NCBI GenBank assembly: GCA_046482545.1
Contig: JAWOEX010000005.1
Span: 1-17,926, forward strand
DNA from: Candidatus Thorarchaeota archaeon
GTDB lineage: Archaea; Asgardarchaeota; Thorarchaeia; Thorarchaeales; Thorarchaeaceae
DNA length: 17,926 nt
Direction: 5' to 3'
Position numbers and translations under genes: made by a program
Shown: one piece after another, positions 8,589-17,926 of the stretch
How the letters are laid out: every line of letters starts with the position of its first letter
Position numbering within the stretch: the stretch's first letter is position 1
The notes under the pieces: generated by a model
What the model saw: only the letters and a program-made list of their open reading frames with translations
Database searches by the model: none
Told to the model about the DNA's origin: nothing

Positions 8589-9629
8589 TCATTTGTACAA
8601 TAGTTCTCCGTCGTCTTCATCGATTATTCCTGGATACCACTTTCCCAGTTCCTCGTTGACGTACTCGATAACAACCTTTGGTGGTCTCGGGTAGTATAGA
8701 TCATAAAGGCCACCCCATGACAGCGAGAGGCGGAACTCGAAGGGTGGGATATCCGGGGCGTCAACAAGGTATAACCGTTTCTCAGGTGGAGAACGGGCTC
8801 TAGTCTTGAACCTATAGTCCGACATCTGTCCCATGAGATTGCCGTTCAGTGGTGAAAGGTAGCTTCCCCCCTGGGGCAAATAGTGTCTGTATAACTGGTT
8901 GGTGTAGAGGAATGTGGTATCTGTTGCAAGCGCCAGGTTGTTGAATGCCTGTAGGATGGTCCGCAACCTGTTTATCGTGACAGAATAGTGGATTCTCTCT
9001 TCAGTCTCTGCTGGGAAGAGGAATCCGAGACAGTCGCAGACAACAAGGGCTGTATCCTCAGAGCACAGTTTTCGAAGCGTATCCAAATAGTCCACCATAT
9101 GGTCCTGGGTCAGGATTGTTGCATGTCGGATGTTGGATATCACTTCATCAGGATCAAGCTCGAACCGTATGGCGGCAGCCCGGATGATGAGCGGGTTGAA
9201 TCCCCGTTCATAGTCAAGCCAGATAACTCCACCACCAAGGCCGCCATGCTCTCGTGGCAGCTGTGATGTGACTGCAAACTGGTGACACCACTGGCTCTTG
9301 CCTGATGCTGAAAGGCCATAGAACTCGACAAGCGAACCTGCATACAATCCACCCTGTAAACGGTTGTCAAGTGTGGGACTTCCAGTAGTTAGCTGTGGTG
9401 TATGATTGAGCTCTTCTTCTATCTCGGTTGCTGGCCGTAGCTTGGTAAAAGGTAACAGGTCACGGGCCAGACGGATGAACTCCGCAAGTTTGTCTTCCTT
9501 CAGACCTCTAATTCGGAGGTCACCCGGAACCTGATAGGCAAGCATCTCCGCACTTGAGATACCGGCGTCTTGCAGCTTCTGACCAGTCGTCGGACCGATA
9601 CCCTTGATTTCCTCAAGGTCAGTTGGCAT
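8589..9629 (-). CDS. Divergent RadA/Rad51-family ATPase paralogue with N-terminal HhH domain
   Basis: HhH LEEIKGIGPTTGQKLQDAGI; TTGS..LD..LQGG; Walker A GLSASGKS; WLDYE; Walker B LVVCD; TNQ; LVDAPDIP. GGAGG upstream of ATG 9629. Confidence 0.9.
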   Translation of the reverse strand: MPTDLEEIKGIGPTTGQKLQDAGISSAEMLAYQVPGDLRIRGLKEDKLAEFIRLARDLLPFTKLRPATEIEEELNHTPQLTTGSPTLDNRLQGGLYAGSLVEFYGLSASGKSQWCHQFAVTSQLPREHGGLGGGVIWLDYERGFNPLIIRAAAIRFELDPDEVISNIRHATILTQDHMVDYLDTLRKLCSEDTALVVCDCLGFLFPAETEERIHYSVTINRLRTILQAFNNLALATDTTFLYTNQLYRHYLPQGGSYLSPLNGNLMGQMSDYRFKTRARSPPEKRLYLVDAPDIPPFEFRLSLSWGGLYDLYYPRPPKVVIEYVNEELGKWYPGIIDEDDGELLYK

Positions 9630-9906
9630 GGTCTCCCTCCTGTGCTGTGAATGCGACTTCGAGGTGTAGGAATAGCGAGCTCAGCCGCTTGAAGTCATGA
9701 GTAATACTCACTGGACTTGTGTTTATTCCTTGTAGGATGTGAAGGATTTCTTGCGTACTGAGTTTCTCGTTCCCCCTCGAGTCGAATGCCAGCAGGAACC
9801 GCTCACCATCATCCGTATCAGGAAGCTTGTATACTGACCGGCACCTGATACCCTGTGCTTCAAGGGTCATCCGGACCTTTTCTTCCAACGTAGCATCAGC
9901 CGACAA
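9619..9906 (-). CDS. Hypothetical small alpha/beta protein (~95 aa)
   Basis: Start re-assigned to TTG 9906 (GGAGG upstream). Overlaps both neighbouring genes by 11 nt. Confidence 0.7.
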   Translation of the reverse strand: MSADATLEEKVRMTLEAQGIRCRSVYKLPDTDDGERFLLAFDSRGNEKLSTQEILHILQGINTSPVSITHDFKRLSSLFLHLEVAFTAQEGDHAN

Positions 9907-10732
9907 CCGAGTACCCTCCCAGCATGAGTTTTCGTCTCTCGTTCTCACGACAGCCGTTAAGCGCTTCCACAAGCTCTGGGTGTTTCCTTAGCATCTGGTT
10001 GTCATGGAGCACCTCGGCCAAGTGGTTCCAGATATGTATCGAGTCGTCGAGAATCCTATCCCGGATGGCTCGTACCACATCCTTATCGTTCCGCAGCCAG
10101 TCAAGGTGTCGCAGAAGGAGAATCTCATCGGTAAGGTGTTTCTCATTTCGTATCCTGTTCACGATGTCCGGTTTCGCAGCCAGGATGGCCTGCTTGATGG
10201 CATCTTGCTCAGCAAGGTATGGGATGCTGACGATAAGAGAAGCATCATGCCAGTTCTCTTCTGCACGTGCGATGAGATGGTCCAGTCGTCCAAGCGTTGC
10301 TCGTTTGATACTCGGATGTTTGTGCAACCCGTAGCCTGCCGCTACATGCAACTGGAAAATGATACTTGAACACGTTGCGATATTGTCCGCGATAGCCTCC
10401 TGAATTTCGGGGATACCAAGGAATCCCCGGATGGCACAGAGTGCATCAATAAGCAGACTGTCTCCCTGCCGCAGCGCTTCAGCAACGGTCTGTCGAATCT
10501 CTGGTTCCTCCCAGAGCTCATCCACCCTGCTCATGACAAAACAGAAACAGTGAGCGACCTTGGGATTGAGAATGACTCTGTGGGTCAGCGATGCGATGGT
10601 TCCATCGGTTCTGTACAGTTCCAGGAAGCGTTCTTTGTTGATGTTCAGGGTGTCTACTGCTGACCTATCCCGTTCTGATGTTGTAAGATAGCTCAGTATA
10701 CCGCGGATATCTGTTTGTTCAGAGACACTCAC
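9896..10732 (-). CDS. Hypothetical alpha-helical repeat (solenoid-like) protein
   Basis: Start re-assigned to GTG 10732 (GGAGG upstream; 2 nt after the TBP stop). Contains six degenerate L-x3-P-x-I-x2-AI repeats. Confidence 0.75.
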   Translation of the reverse strand: MSVSEQTDIRGILSYLTTSERDRSAVDTLNINKERFLELYRTDGTIASLTHRVILNPKVAHCFCFVMSRVDELWEEPEIRQTVAEALRQGDSLLIDALCAIRGFLGIPEIQEAIADNIATCSSIIFQLHVAAGYGLHKHPSIKRATLGRLDHLIARAEENWHDASLIVSIPYLAEQDAIKQAILAAKPDIVNRIRNEKHLTDEILLLRHLDWLRNDKDVVRAIRDRILDDSIHIWNHLAEVLHDNQMLRKHPELVEALNGCRENERRKLMLGGYSVVG

Positions 10733-10734
10733 TT

Positions 10735-11313
10735 CTACTCCTCCATACAACCAAGCTCAGCAAGGCGGCTCACGGTCTCCTGCGCATACGCTTCGACTTC
10801 CGATTCCGTTCGTGCACCTGTTACCGTTATCTTGCCCTGACTGAAGAGAGAGATAGAAATCCCGGGTGTTGGCTTGTAGATCAATCCCGGGAATTGCTCA
10901 GGTTCATACACGCTGTATTCCAACTTCATGGATGCCAGTTCGATGTTGATGCTTGAACCGGTCGTTACCGTTGCAACGATATTGTGTACCTGTATGACAG
11001 GGTCCGAATCGACAGTAATGCGCTTCTCGCGTATGAGCTCCACGGTCTTCCGTATCGCCTCGATTGATACTTCTTTGGATTTGCATCCTACCGCCACTAT
11101 CGTTCCCTTTGAATACATGACCAGGACTGCTTCAGGCTCATCCATGCGGTAGATGATGCCTCTGTATTTGGGTTCGAACTCGACATTTCGCAGGGATGCA
11201 GCGATTTCGTCTAGGTCAAGACGATGTGGAAACTGGGCAGATACCATCACATTCCGAATATCGATGCTGTCGATTGAGCTATCGCATACTGCTTCAACCA
11301 TCGTCGTTGCCAT
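10735..11313 (-). CDS. tbp: TATA-box-binding protein, divergent paralogue
   Basis: Two TBP repeats: IRNVMVS..LDLDEIA..EFEPKYRGIIYR..MYSKGTIVAVGCKS and VHNIVAT..YEPEQFPGLIY..LFSQGKITVTGART. GGAGG upstream. Confidence 0.93.
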   Translation of the reverse strand: MATTMVEAVCDSSIDSIDIRNVMVSAQFPHRLDLDEIAASLRNVEFEPKYRGIIYRMDEPEAVLVMYSKGTIVAVGCKSKEVSIEAIRKTVELIREKRITVDSDPVIQVHNIVATVTTGSSINIELASMKLEYSVYEPEQFPGLIYKPTPGISISLFSQGKITVTGARTESEVEAYAQETVSRLAELGCMEE

Positions 11314-11315
11314 CG

Positions 11316-11627
11316 CTATCCCTCCTGTGCTACCATACCACTGCTATTGCCCGAGTTGTGCAGAGGGTTCCCTCGTACAGGAAGCTGCCTGTATGGAGCT
11401 ATTCTATCCAGACAGTTCAGTAAGACCTTCACATCGTTGTACGCACCGTTTGCCTGCAACAGTCCACATACCCGTTCAGTATTCAGACTGTTGTGCTCGC
11501 AGAACGCTTCAACGTGCTTGTAGGGGCGATATTCCCCTGTGGGCTTGCGGTCGAAGACCTCCACCAAATAGAGTACAAGATCTCCAAACAGTCTCGAATT
11601 CGGAACCGGGACCGGTTGGTCTTCCAT
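11316..11627 (-). CDS. DUF2695-like small protein
   Basis: HVEAFCEHNSLNTERVCGLLQANGAYNDVKVLLN parallels the DUF2695 pattern (F....GL..E.V..WL..NGGYCDCEVLLN). A strong archaeal RBS GAGGTGAT precedes the ATG. Confidence 0.65.
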   Translation of the reverse strand: MEDQPVPVPNSRLFGDLVLYLVEVFDRKPTGEYRPYKHVEAFCEHNSLNTERVCGLLQANGAYNDVKVLLNCLDRIAPYRQLPVRGNPLHNSGNSSGMVAQEG

Positions 11628-13172
11628 TCATATCACCTCACAGAGAGAGAGCACATTGGTGTCGGTGGTCAGGGGCACCGGTTTGGCCTGTAAGTGGTGG
11701 TTCCTCACCCGACGTTCAAAGACAGAGCTGTGCATGTTGTACAGGACTGTTGGACCGAGCGCCCCTGTTTCTCTGACAACGCGGAACTCCTCGTTGCTTG
11801 CTTTCATCGCATCCTCGTAGGCTGATACGAACTCCACTGCATCAACCTGATCCTGCTGGAACATCGCTGCGATAGCATAATGCCCCAGCCCATCCTCGAT
11901 AAGGCCGACCACGCTGTAATCGAGTACTTCGTACCCGGTTTTCTCGGATGCTCGTCGTATGGCGTTTGCCACGTGTGCTTCACTGATCTTCTCACCTGAC
12001 AGGTTCACGACGTTACCGCGGCGGCTTACGGACCGGATAGTGTAGGGGTCTGTGCTTTCAAACGTCACCATGTCCCCGATTCTATAGCGATAATAGCCCT
12101 GCACGTTCGTTATGACTATCTCATAGCGGCTTCCAGCTTTCACATCGGTTAGTGGTAAAACATCTGGTTTCTCGTTCACCTGATCTTCAGGAATGAACTC
12201 GAAGTAGTTGGTCGTGGTGAACAGTTGCATGCCCTCAGTGTCAGCACAAAGCTGCCCTGCAAAGACTCCTTCGGATGCACCATAGATATCCCACATGACC
12301 AGATTCGGAATGTTTCTCGTCAGCCATTTCCTGTATGGGTCAGGATCTATCCCCGATGCTAGAAACAATCTAAGGTTGGGCCACAATTCGCCGATATCAA
12401 GGGTGCCGTCATCCTGAAGGGCGTTCCTTATTCTCGATTCGTGTTTGGTTCCGGCCAGCTTGTCAAGCAACCACGGACCGTAGTGGTTCTGCATCCTTCG
12501 AATCAACGCAAGAGATAGTGTGGTTATACCCTGCAGGCCGGTAACGTCACACGTTGCCATGAGTTCGGCGTACGCATGCATCTTCTTGTCCATGTCGTCT
12601 ATGTTGAACACATCTTCGCCCGGCTCGATAAGCCGCTGGAACAGCGCGTTCTGATTTCTAGCGTATACGCCGGTGGCATACCCAACCGGGACGCCGTTGA
12701 TGTAATCCATCTCTGGAGCTGCACCAAAGGTCACAAGGGTTCCATCCACTATCTTGGGATTCTCCGGGTCGGCGTTCATGAACGCCATCCAGGTGAGAGC
12801 TGTTACGCCACTGACATCCTTGAGTCCCTGCTTGGTGATAGGCAACCGTTTTGGTTTGCCAGTCGTACCCGATGTTTGCAAGTACCAGTAAACAGGGTCT
12901 TTCGTCAGGATGCCTCCGCTTGGATCAGCATACGTCAGCTTGTAGTACGGCTTCATACTCTGATAATCCGAAAGCGGGACCCGTTCCCTGAACTGGTCAG
13001 GGGTTGTTATCTGCTCAAAGCTAAACTGCTTGCCCAGGAGTGTCTCCCGGTGCCGATGCAGAATGGACATGAGCTTCTCTTCGCTGAGCTCGATAGGGTT
13101 GTTCAGTATCTCATCGATGCTTTTCTGTTTGTGTTTCGCGTAGAACGAAACAAGTCGTCTCATAATCGACAT
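11628..13172 (-). CDS. GH3 family acyl-adenylate-forming (acyl acid-amido synthetase-like) protein
   Basis: FRERVPLSDY, P-loop TSGTTGKPK, YGASEG, YFEFIP, YEIVITN, YRYRIGD and GEK motifs. Start re-assigned to ATG 13172 (GGAGG upstream). Confidence 0.92.
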   Translation of the reverse strand: MSIMRRLVSFYAKHKQKSIDEILNNPIELSEEKLMSILHRHRETLLGKQFSFEQITTPDQFRERVPLSDYQSMKPYYKLTYADPSGGILTKDPVYWYLQTSGTTGKPKRLPITKQGLKDVSGVTALTWMAFMNADPENPKIVDGTLVTFGAAPEMDYINGVPVGYATGVYARNQNALFQRLIEPGEDVFNIDDMDKKMHAYAELMATCDVTGLQGITTLSLALIRRMQNHYGPWLLDKLAGTKHESRIRNALQDDGTLDIGELWPNLRLFLASGIDPDPYRKWLTRNIPNLVMWDIYGASEGVFAGQLCADTEGMQLFTTTNYFEFIPEDQVNEKPDVLPLTDVKAGSRYEIVITNVQGYYRYRIGDMVTFESTDPYTIRSVSRRGNVVNLSGEKISEAHVANAIRRASEKTGYEVLDYSVVGLIEDGLGHYAIAAMFQQDQVDAVEFVSAYEDAMKASNEEFRVVRETGALGPTVLYNMHSSVFERRVRNHHLQAKPVPLTTDTNVLSLCEVI

Positions 13173-13272: not shown

Positions 13273-13439
13273 GAATGAGCGCCCAGACAGCGATATTGAG
13301 GTTCAATAGACGCTCCACCATATTCATTCTATCTTAAAATCCGTAGAATCGTCTAAGCGGTTCTATGATTGCTCAGTTCGGAAGTGCTTTGCCGATTTTT
13401 CCCGGTAAATGGCCTATCTTGGCGCCATATTGTGTAACA
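13273..13439. repeat. Conserved intergenic element, copy 1
   Basis: Shares GAATGAGCG, GGTTCA, CGCTCCACCATATT, TCTTAA, AAGCG, CTCAG, GAAGT, GCTTTGCCGATTTTTCCCGGT and GCGCCATAT, in order, with 15479-15657. Confidence 0.9.
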
Positions 13440-15478: not shown

Positions 15479-15657
15479 GAATGAGCGTTCTCTCGGTCGT
15501 TCTAACGGTTCATATGCGCTCCACCATATTTAGACTCTTCTTAATTTCCTAAAATAACGAAAAGCGTGTTATGCGTTCTCAGATTGAAGTCGCTTTGCCG
15601 ATTTTTCCCGGTCATACAATAATCATCGAAAGTATTAGAGCGCCATATATGGAAACA
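15479..15657. repeat. Conserved intergenic element, copy 2
   Basis: Same ordered blocks as 13273-13439, in the same orientation, offset 2206 bp. Confidence 0.9.
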
Positions 15658-15898: not shown

Positions 15899-16606
15899 TT
15901 AGCTTACTCCCGTCCTTGTATCCTGAGCTGGTCTCGGTTGTGTAATGGGTCTGTAGAACACTGGCATGAGACCGACGTAACTTATCAGGCTGATTGTCGA
16001 TGCCAGGGGAATCCAGTCCACACCGCCGAGTCCCGGAAGCAAAGCTGTGCTACCGGCAACAGCTATGGCCAGGGAAGCAAGACCACCAATGAGAGTTATG
16101 ATGTAACCTGCAAGGGTAATTCTGTCGGATTCTCTGCCAACAACGCCCGCCAGTCCTGCAAGAAACAGGAATAAGATAGTGAGAAAACACCTCAGGTTCC
16201 AGAGTAACTCCATAGTCCCAAATTCCTCAAGGGAAAGTTGAAGTGATTGAGAGCGGGCAGTCTCTTGAAAGGCACCGCCATAGGAAATAACCCAAACGAT
16301 GGTCAGGACAGTTACGGCGAGACACAAAAGAGCCGTTAGTAGGAGAAATAATTTGCGTATTATCTTCCTATACAAAGGAATAGAAGCTAGCAAACCAGTT
16401 ACCAATGGGAGTAATGCCAGCAAAGCGTAATAACCATTCAAACTAATACCCCCAAGGGCCCAGTAATCCATCCCAAGACCCACGTATTCGAAGGTTTTCC
16501 CATATACTAGTGCCAGAACAATTGGATATCCTGCGAAAATGCCTAATAGAGAACCCAAGATTCCTATCTTCCGAGCGTTATCCAACATTTCATAATCCAC
16601 TGCCAA
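15899..16606 (-). CDS. Hypothetical membrane protein (about 6 TM)
   Basis: 235-codon ORF with six hydrophobic segments; TTG start preceded by GGGAGGT. Confidence 0.8.
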   Translation of the reverse strand: MAVDYEMLDNARKIGILGSLLGIFAGYPIVLALVYGKTFEYVGLGMDYWALGGISLNGYYALLALLPLVTGLLASIPLYRKIIRKLFLLLTALLCLAVTVLTIVWVISYGGAFQETARSQSLQLSLEEFGTMELLWNLRCFLTILFLFLAGLAGVVGRESDRITLAGYIITLIGGLASLAIAVAGSTALLPGLGGVDWIPLASTISLISYVGLMPVFYRPITQPRPAQDTRTGVS

Positions 16607-16955
16607 CTACCTCCCAGAACCACACCGATAGCATCATTATTTATTCTGTACATCAATTTCGCCTCAGTCGATTTGATTCTGTACTGCCCTCTGAGCGCAT
16701 CTTCCCAGTGTAAAAGAGGAGACCTAACTATTTGACTCCCATTCCTACTATCCCGCCATAAGAAAGAGCGGAACTATTTGAGACTTACTCTCAGAATCGA
16801 TCCACGAATAGGAATAACTGGGGAAGCAGAACAAGGCCGTCTGCAAAAATCAGCAAAACGGAACATCAGCTCTTCTCACAAAAACAACTCTACTGAAATA
16901 AAATAGATGCTGAGGATGGAGGTACTGCTTCTTGAGGTCTCACACCAAATATTGT

Positions 16956-17711: not shown

Positions 17712-17926
17712 TCAACGAAAGTTGGTCAATCGAGAAAGATCCACCACGAGTGTGTCCTCACTGCTTGATATTGTCCTGTTGATCCAGAAGTCCTGTGATA
17801 GCTCCTTAGAGGTCTTCACCTTGATTGATGCATAGACCTTGTTGTACCCTGCAAGAGCATTCTCCCAGTCAAGGTCGATGGTAACGGTCTTGCCCCGGAT
17901 AACTTGGTGTCGCCTGACAGAGCCTG
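17712..17926 (-). CDS. 3' end of a hypothetical protein running off the window edge
   Basis: Open frame from 17924 to TGA at 17714-17712: GSVRRHQVIRGKTVTIDLDWENALAGYNKVYASIKVKTSKELSQDFWINRTISSSEDTLVVDLSRLTNFR*. Confidence 0.6.
   Translation of the reverse strand, partial: GSVRRHQVIRGKTVTIDLDWENALAGYNKVYASIKVKTSKELSQDFWINRTISSSEDTLVVDLSRLTNFR

What the first reader, a model, noticed from the sequence alone, without database searches (positions are those of the whole stretch)
8589..13172. Six-gene coupled operon joining a GH3 ligase, an alternative TBP and a RadA paralogue
Seen: six minus-strand genes with junctions of 0 nt (TGAATG), 2 nt, 2 nt, and two 11-nt overlaps. Each downstream gene has a clear RBS (GAGGTGAT or GGAGG) inside the previous gene. 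The order is GH3, DUF2695-like, TBP, helical repeat, small unknown, RadA-like. Known: GH3 enzymes adenylate carboxylic acids and usually amidate them, TBP selects archaeal promoters, and RecA-fold proteins sense ssDNA/ATP. Housekeeping tbp and radA are not normally co-transcribed with each other or with GH3, and I know no described system with this composition. Inference: a dedicated stress or signalling module in which a RecA-fold sensor and scaffold proteins control an alternative TBP (an SOS-like or sigma-factor-like switch), with GH3 making a small-molecule signal or acylating a partner. A defence or mobile-element cargo role is also possible.
Basis: partly seen in the sequence, partly recalled or inferred. 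Interest (0 to 1): 0.88.

Follow-up and report, generated by a model that had tools for sequence, protein, structure and literature searches.

The report
Asgard operon with spliced coding segment
This six-gene operon of a Thorarchaeote (Asgard archaeon) is a real, variable cassette of fast-evolving gene copies, and its fifth gene has turned 90 bases of its own protein-coding sequence into a tRNA-type intron that is seen cut out in RNA data, so one archaeal gene appears to give two protein forms.

Summary
The six genes, junctions and ribosome-binding sites are as described. The host is a Thorarchaeote; housekeeping tbp and radA lie elsewhere. The gene order recurs, whole or in part, on seven other contigs, but only in close (genus-level) relatives, and parts are often lost or swapped. 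The TBP, RadA-like and gene-5 proteins are fast-evolving copies of core genes under purifying selection. The operon shares a two-box upstream element with the core RadA-paralogue/XPD operon. No SOS-like switch or GH3 signal was shown. The new result: two salt-lake RNA-library contigs, of two alleles, lack the same 90 in-frame bases of gene 5 (9674-9763), joined exactly at the cut sites of a canonical bulge-helix-bulge. The motif is fixed, synonymous sites included, in all six cassette alleles and absent from 24 core paralogues whose same 30 codons are ordinary coding sequence. This is intronised coding sequence (exitron-like), not an inserted intron. The scan has noted inserted BHB mRNA introns on other DNA; I found no note or paper on this in-frame type. 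The RNA evidence is two low-depth contigs from one study.

The parts
13313..13404 (-). Two-box upstream element (box A 13389-13404, box B 13313-13325, starts 79 nt apart, TATA-like T-run between); probable promoter module shared with the core RadA-paralogue/XPD operon
   Evidence: 6 copies in this genome, 0 in shuffles, 4-7 box-A hits in each same-genus genome
11628..13172 (-). GH3-family acyl-adenylate/amide ligase, the only intact copy in the genome; three nucleotide-binding motifs intact
   Evidence: motifs compared with PMC12493201
11316..11627 (-). g2: DUF2695-like C-terminal domain; short form of a patchy Thorarchaeal family whose long form has Cys-rich N-terminal domains
10735..11313 (-). 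Alternative TBP: repeat 2 canonical (acidic TFB-contact loop kept), repeat 1 DNA-contact residues altered; member of a long-branched clade of 8 sequences
9896..10732 (-). g4: all-helical alpha-solenoid, no specific structural match; found in 6 of 87 genomes of the order
9619..9906 (-). g5: cassette copy of a Thorarchaeal single-copy core gene (36/36 genomes); small alpha/beta protein; 95 aa unspliced, 65 aa spliced
9674..9763 (-). 90-nt in-frame segment (codons 49-78 of g5) removed in RNA-library contigs; ends match the canonical BHB cut sites (1-nt ambiguity: 9673-9762 is equivalent)
9655..9783 (-). Bulge-helix-bulge with flanking stems: central helix 9766-9769/9676-9679, 3-nt bulges 9763-9765 and 9673-9675, intron stem 9757-9762/9680-9685, exon stems out to 9783/9655
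8589..9629 (-). RadA-like paralogue, closest to the Thorarchaeal core RadA paralogue on C9 (41%); Walker A/B and catalytic Glu kept, L1/L2 DNA-binding loops remodelled and hypervariable

Best explanation
This is a genus-restricted accessory operon built behind the native GH3 gene from duplicated core genes (tbp, g5, the Thorarchaeal RadA paralogue) plus two patchy genes (g2, g4). SHOWN: order, recurrence, purifying selection, mosaic recombination between alleles, a shared upstream element, and a conserved BHB in g5 whose cut sites match an RNA junction. INFERRED mechanism: the operon is transcribed from the same type of promoter as the core RadA-paralogue/XPD repair operon. The tRNA splicing endonuclease and RtcB remove codons 49-78 from part of the mRNA. 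Unspliced mRNA gives the ancestral-length folded g5; spliced mRNA gives a 65-aa form lacking the second helix and one strand, most likely non-functional or altered. Splicing therefore works as a post-transcriptional switch on g5 (about 50%). Ribosomes reading g5 would melt the BHB, so the cut probably happens when translation is slow (speculative). The alt-TBP keeps its TFB-binding half and has a changed DNA-binding half, so it would redirect or soak up TFB. The RadA-like protein is an ATPase modulator rather than a strand-exchange recombinase. GH3 is a passenger.
For: Synteny: L139 has all six genes, L140 five, L137 and L224 four, L138 and L223 three, L268 has g5-radA; G001 has g4-g5-radA. 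Selection: dN/dS mostly 0.1-0.35, against 0.01-0.1 over most of the core RadA paralogue and 0.06 for core g5. Splicing: runs X5 and X3 skip 9673-9762 while DNA run X2 and RNA run X4 hold the full form. The MFE fold is a canonical BHB, z -4.4, 0/200 shuffles. It is the only one of 87 genome-wide pattern hits whose three helices all fold (P 0.87-1.0). Codons 46-51, 74-77 and 79 are invariant in six alleles while 19/26 comparable codons elsewhere vary synonymously (arm vs rest Fisher p 0.007); the 3' bulge codon takes four amino acids but always ends in A; 17/200,000 synonymous recodings keep the motif. One compensatory pair, 97.5% of cells paired. Microhomology at the join is 1 nt. EndA (two genes) and RtcB are encoded. 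The segment aligns without gaps to coding sequence of 24 core paralogues lacking the BHB; inside it dN/dS is 0.47 with no stops or indels.
Against: The RNA evidence is two Logan contigs (depth 2 and 5.7) from one study; strand, spliced fraction and presence of the joined form in DNA runs were not available. The six alleles are close kin, so covariation is not significant (88/500 shuffles) and the Fisher test overstates. The shared upstream element is also in G002, where no alt-TBP was found, and DNA-damage induction is untested. No function is known for g2, g4 or g5. The cassette decays in some relatives.
Confidence: 0.55

Rival explanations
1. One reading: a dedicated SOS-like switch in which the RadA-like protein senses ssDNA, g4/g5/g2 hold or release the alt-TBP, and GH3 makes a signal.
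For: Order conserved on several contigs; upstream element shared with the RadA-paralogue/XPD operon; TFB-contact loop kept in the alt-TBP (PMC7221094).
Against: GH3 is present in 32/36 family genomes, nearly all without the cassette. Parts occur separately. L1/L2 residues used for DNA binding are lost and hypervariable. No repressor or protease part was found.
Confidence: 0.15
2. Defence or conflict cassette: alt-TBP, RadA-like and g5 are decoys or sensors for viral proteins, kept diverse by allele swapping, and EndA cleavage controls or aborts expression.
For: Variable island with repeats and contig-end duplications; mosaic alleles (dS 0.03 next to 0.45 within one TBP pair); a g4 homologue lies next to a Septu PtuAB pair.
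Against: No PADLOC hit for any of the six proteins; no domain with a known killing activity; pairwise dN/dS stays below 1 for the TBP, RadA-like, g2 and g4 genes.
Confidence: 0.15
3. The BHB is real but the switch is not: the operon is a loose pile-up of duplicates in an insertion hotspot behind GH3, and the motif serves only mRNA turnover or makes a by-product circle.
For: GH3's downstream neighbours differ in almost every genus; the cassette is truncated in G001, L137 and L267; the interior of the segment has no shared fold.
Against: Synonymous sites of the BHB are fixed, ligated products are seen, and all genes are under purifying selection.
Confidence: 0.1
4. The RNA junction is an artefact or a DNA deletion allele (reverse-transcriptase jump over a hairpin, or a strain lacking 90 bp).
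For: Contigs only, low depth, one study; RNA libraries can hold DNA.
Against: The join is staggered exactly as EndA cuts (after the second base of each bulge; PMC2738675), not at a stem base. Microhomology is 1 nt. Two different alleles show it. A random join would hit one of the 87 pattern sites with odds near 1 in 10 million (my arithmetic). No g5 with the joined sequence was found in GTDB genome contigs.
Confidence: 0.05

Closest known systems
BHB intron of crenarchaeal cbf5 pre-mRNA (Watanabe 2002; Yokobori 2009, PMC2738675)
   Same: Bulge-helix-bulge inside a protein-coding region, cut between the second and third bulge bases, variable interior.
   Different: The cbf5 intron is extra sequence that intron-less relatives lack. 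Here the 90 nt are the ancestral coding sequence, the unspliced mRNA gives the full-length protein, and splicing deletes 30 conserved residues in frame.
BHB intron in the 5' UTR of Haloferax HVO_1309 (PMC7714728)
   Same: EndA processes an mRNA, with a proposed regulatory role.
   Different: It is untranslated and does not change the protein.
Eukaryotic exitrons; IRE1/RtcB splicing of XBP1/HAC1 (exitrons from my own knowledge; IRE1 in PMC13149111)
   Same: An internal coding segment is kept or removed, giving two products; XBP1 uses an endonuclease plus RtcB-type ligase.
   Different: Exitrons are spliceosomal; XBP1 splicing uses IRE1 and shifts the frame. Here the motif is a tRNA-type BHB and the frame is kept.
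Multiple TBP/TFB paralogues of haloarchaea, Sulfolobus TFB3 (PMC6101594), metazoan TBPL1 (PMC7221094)
   Same: An extra general transcription factor that may change promoter use; TFB3 is tied to DNA damage.
   Different: This TBP is asymmetric, evolves far faster than the core copy and sits in an operon with a RadA paralogue; no such operon was found in the papers searched.
Archaeal RadA paralogues (RadB, aRadC, second Asgard RadA clades, PMC12722695)
   Same: RecA-fold ATPase without the canonical strand-exchange loops.
   Different: Keeps the N-terminal HhH domain; it is a copy of a Thorarchaeal paralogue; alleles are only 45-61% identical within close relatives.
GH3 ligases, bacterial OlsH (PMC12493201)
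   Same: Three nucleotide-binding motifs intact.
   Different: Far below the OlsH cut-off (144 vs 620 bits); substrate unknown.

Membership tests
Archaeal BHB mRNA intron (cbf5 type) | 4-bp helix flanked by two 3-nt bulges and outer stems | tested here: met
Archaeal BHB mRNA intron (cbf5 type) | Spliced junction at the cut after the second base of each bulge | tested here: met
   (two RNA-library contigs, one study); rule from PMC2738675
Archaeal BHB mRNA intron (cbf5 type) | Splicing endonuclease and RtcB encoded | tested here: met
Archaeal BHB mRNA intron (cbf5 type) | Extra sequence relative to intron-less homologues; removal restores the normal protein | tested here: not met
   the 30 codons align without gaps to 24 core paralogues; removal deletes conserved residues
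Archaeal BHB mRNA intron (cbf5 type) | In vitro EndA cleavage; circular intron | not testable with these tools
   needs raw reads or a bench assay
Exitron (works-like comparison) | Internal, in-frame, stop-free coding segment present in kept and removed forms | tested here: met
   the kept form in RNA run X4 could be DNA
Exitron (works-like comparison) | Spliceosomal GU-AG ends | tested here: not met
   ends are BHB bulges
Exitron (works-like comparison) | Both protein forms are made | not testable with these tools
   only indirect: dN/dS 0.47 inside the segment
Housekeeping archaeal TBP | NCBIfam equivalog cut-off and two symmetric DNA-binding repeats | tested here: not met
   148 vs 270 bits; repeat 1 altered; the C9 copy passes at 274.6
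Housekeeping archaeal TBP | Acidic C-lobe loop for TFB contact | tested here: met
   E137 and E139 kept in the window protein; second Glu replaced in three other alleles (PMC7221094)
RadA recombinase | Walker A, Walker B and catalytic Glu | tested here: met
RadA recombinase | Equivalog cut-off; conserved L1/L2 DNA-binding residues | tested here: not met
   175 vs 259 bits; L1 RQ motif and GGH motif lost
GH3 ligase | Pfam GH3 domains and three nucleotide-binding motifs | tested here: met
SOS-like RecA/LexA switch | Self-cleaving repressor controlled by the RecA filament | tested here: inconclusive
   no such family hit among the six genes; g2, g4 and g5 remain unassigned
Known anti-phage system | PADLOC model match | tested here: inconclusive
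   no hits; the library dates from 2023

The most novel reading that the evidence does not exclude
An Asgard archaeon uses its tRNA splicing endonuclease and RtcB for regulated alternative splicing of a protein-coding mRNA. A coding segment became an intron by point mutation, both protein forms are made, and the splice state controls a stress operon that holds an alternative TBP and a RadA paralogue. This would be a prokaryotic analogue of exitron or XBP1-type control.
Probability: 0.35. Interest if true: 0.93.

Novelty: new variant of a known kind. Interest (0 to 1): 0.8.

Why it matters
Published archaeal mRNA splicing rests on cbf5 and one 5' UTR (PMC7714728). Both of those, and the candidates this scan noted elsewhere, are described as inserts or untranslated. 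An in-frame coding segment that became spliceable would be invisible to gene callers, because the ORF looks intact. It would show that archaea can make two proteins from one gene and that introns can arise from coding sequence, in the lineage closest to eukaryotes. It is cheap to test: a 130-nt transcript, EndA, RtcB and RT-PCR. The operon also offers a natural asymmetric TBP for testing whether extra TBPs change promoter choice.

Tried and rejected
Complex prediction alt-TBP + g4 gave no answer (score 0.00); it is not used as evidence either way. Fold searches for g4 (best Z 9.8, generic solenoids; Foldseek no E below 0.001) and g5 (best Z 7.4) and ESM Atlas gave no function. Viral contigs: no g4, g5 or BHB-arm match; no integrase or terminal repeat was seen in the window, so a provirus or transposon reading is unsupported, not excluded. 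Rfam: nothing. The bacterial promoter/terminator scan was at chance level. The search for related loci for GH3 in genome contigs found nothing; the metagenome scan for TBP returned only distant TBPs. No second conserved BHB was found in the cassette, and the other strict genome-wide pattern hits do not fold. The joined junction pattern gave 33 hits in GTDB contigs, near chance; the one Thorarchaeal hit is an unrelated gene. Contamination was rejected: the contig shares end repeats and identical box-A letters with other contigs of the genome. RNA-run coverage over the operon is patchy and cannot show one transcript or rank genes. One genome-wide script timed out and one Pfam call failed on a wrong frame. 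Paper searches for exitron plus intronization plus archaea returned none; the library lacks most subscription journals.
Full report
OBSERVATION. The window is the whole contig C31 of a 3.05-Mb, 99%-complete genome. Nearest named homologues are Candidatus Thorarchaeota. The housekeeping tbp (C9:119.6 kb) and radA (C14:36-37 kb) pass NCBIfam cut-offs; the operon copies do not. A third, family-wide RadA paralogue lies on C9 in an operon with a Zn-ribbon/wHTH gene and an XPD/Rad3 helicase; the operon's RadA-like protein is closer to it (41%) than to true RadA (29%).

DISTRIBUTION. GH3 is found in 32 of 36 family genomes, nearly always once, usually head-to-head with that repair operon, and with different downstream neighbours in almost every genus. 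In this genome a deleted GH3 remnant remains beside the C9 repair operon, followed by DNA matching the start of long-form g2. The cassette order recurs on metagenome contigs: L139 has all six genes, L140 g2 to radA, L137 and L224 GH3 to g4, L138 and L223 g2-TBP-g4, L268 g5-radA. Same-genus G001 has a fused g4 remnant followed by g5-radA, and GH3-g2 elsewhere; G002 has only GH3-g2. GH3 of L137/L139 is 89-94% identical to G001/G002, so these are genus-level relatives. g4 was found in 6 and g2 in 20 of 87 genomes of the order, outside this genus without the other genes within the 1.5-kb flanks checked. Two more alt-TBPs sit in other arrangements (L141, L225). The cassette is thus real but young, modular and confined to close relatives.

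EVOLUTION OF THE PARTS. Eight alt-TBPs form one long-branched clade (98/95); its attachment point is unsure because long branches meet there. Repeat 2 keeps the YEPEQFPGL loop whose glutamates contact TFB (PMC7221094); repeat 1 has lost the symmetric motif and differs between alleles. The RadA-like protein keeps Walker A/B and the catalytic Glu but has lost the L1 and GGH motifs; its C-terminal half is 27-58% identical between alleles. dN/dS is mostly 0.1-0.35, above core copies (mostly 0.01-0.1) but below 1, and dS jumps within genes (TBP window vs L138: 0.45 then 0.03), which indicates allele recombination. DNA run X2 shows a second radA allele diverging at 9232. g4 folds as a confident alpha-solenoid (pLDDT 92) and g5 as a small alpha/beta domain (pLDDT 76), neither with a specific match. 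GH3 has all three nucleotide-binding motifs.

UPSTREAM ELEMENT. Two boxes 79 nt apart lie before GH3. The pair occurs six times in the genome (box A 0 times in shuffles), including before the core RadA-paralogue/XPD operon and the GH3 remnant, and recurs in both same-genus genomes but was not seen at GH3 loci of other genera. A shared promoter is the simplest reading (inference); co-induction is untested, and G002 has the element without a detected alt-TBP.

THE SPLICED SEGMENT. Laying three salt-lake metatranscriptomes and one DNA run on the operon showed contigs from two samples (X5, depth 5.7; X3, depth 2) that skip 9673-9762 inside g5. X3 carries a different exon-2 allele (25 of 40 bases match the window). 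DNA run X2 and RNA run X4 hold the full sequence. On the coding strand the two ends form a canonical bulge-helix-bulge: CGAG/CUCG central helix, bulges AAA and CUA, a 6-bp inner stem and a long outer stem (z -4.4, 0/200 shuffles). Cutting after the second base of each bulge (PMC2738675) gives exactly the observed join; microhomology is 1 nt. The pattern alone occurs 87 times genome-wide, as in shuffles (77-89), but only this site folds in all three helices. The motif is present in all six cassette alleles. Its core codons are fixed even at synonymous sites, while 19 of 26 comparable codons elsewhere vary; the one free codon is the 3' bulge, which encodes L, K, S or R and always ends in A; 17 of 200,000 synonymous recodings keep the motif. 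There is one compensatory pair, not significant on six kin. The genome encodes two EndA-family genes and RtcB.

WHY IT IS NOT AN ORDINARY INTRON. g5 is a copy of a gene found in 36/36 family genomes, usually just upstream of an SDR gene. The 30 skipped codons align without gaps to 24 core paralogues, none of which has the full BHB; the six cassette copies form one clade (100/100). Inside the segment there are no stops or indels, hydrophobic positions vary only synonymously, and dN/dS is 0.47. So the motif arose by substitution within coding sequence. The unspliced mRNA encodes the ancestral-length protein and the spliced mRNA a 65-aa form lacking helix 51-59 and strand 66-68 of the model. The frame and the radA ribosome-binding site are kept either way.

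MECHANISM AND ODDS. My estimates: splicing is real, about 0.9; the motif is selected, about 0.9; both proteins are made, about 0.6; the splice is a regulated switch, about 0.35-0.5; the operon is DNA-damage-linked, about 0.5. Best reading: an accessory stress operon in which EndA/RtcB splicing toggles g5 between a folded and a truncated form, the alt-TBP redirects or sequesters TFB (four TFB genes are present), the RadA-like protein acts as an ATPase modulator, and GH3 is an inherited first gene. The roles of the proteins are inference only. The one complex prediction gave no answer.

COMPARISON. Published cases are the cbf5 intron and the HVO_1309 5' UTR intron (PMC2738675, PMC7714728). Earlier scan notes list further BHB elements in archaeal coding genes, including Asgard ones, described as 17-37 nt inserts (not re-tested here). 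No note or paper on an in-frame intronised coding segment in archaea, or on this operon, was found. It works like a BHB intron and like an exitron, but fails a defining feature of each.

VERDICT. Observation confirmed; the SOS-like and GH3-signal reading is only partly supported; the strongest result is the exitron-like BHB segment in g5. Main weakness: two low-depth contigs from one study, with no strand and no matched-DNA check. Interest 0.8.

Noticed in passing
window 15519-15610 (-): Second copy of the two-box upstream element, before a 102-aa ORF and a broken TPR gene; the same arrangement in L267 leads into an intact TPR gene followed by a BHB-bearing g5.
   Followed up: partly
G000:C9:233647-234300 (L001 11577-12303): GH3 remnant with most of its middle deleted, about 5 kb upstream of the core RadA paralogue, followed by DNA matching the start of long-form g2: probably the cassette's former site.
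   Followed up: partly
window 16588-16954: A 60-350 bp sequence repeated on at least seven other contigs (C2, C13, C17, C18, C19, C32, C45), often near contig ends; possible cassette-array or MITE-like repeat.
   Followed up: no
window 17736-17926 and 61-470: The contig ends match the ends of C3 (100%) and C7 (96%); C3 also holds a g4 fragment. The island lies among repeats that break the assembly.
   Followed up: partly
L139:237-869: Long-form g2 has an N-terminal Cys cluster, a CxxC..CxxC ribbon and a DUF2695-like domain; 27 clusters at 50% identity, named members Thorarchaeal.
   Followed up: partly
L226:777-3891: A g4 homologue lies directly after a Septu PtuA-PtuB pair; another (L123) lies near a HerA-like ATPase.
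   Followed up: partly
L061, L062: Genomes G008 and G032 have two tandem RadA paralogues in the core repair operon where others have a 150-aa gene plus one paralogue.
   Followed up: no
L125, L133, L134: Other Thorarchaeota carry tandem or very divergent extra TBPs outside this clade.
   Followed up: partly
L120:9300-10084 joined to L117: In G001 a signal-peptide/prenyltransferase-like ORF is fused in frame to g4 from about residue 86, replacing the GH3-g2-TBP part.
   Followed up: partly
G000:C9:249046-249080 (+) and C29:18020-18068 (+): Two other BHB-pattern sites fold their central and inner helices but not the outer stem.
   Followed up: no
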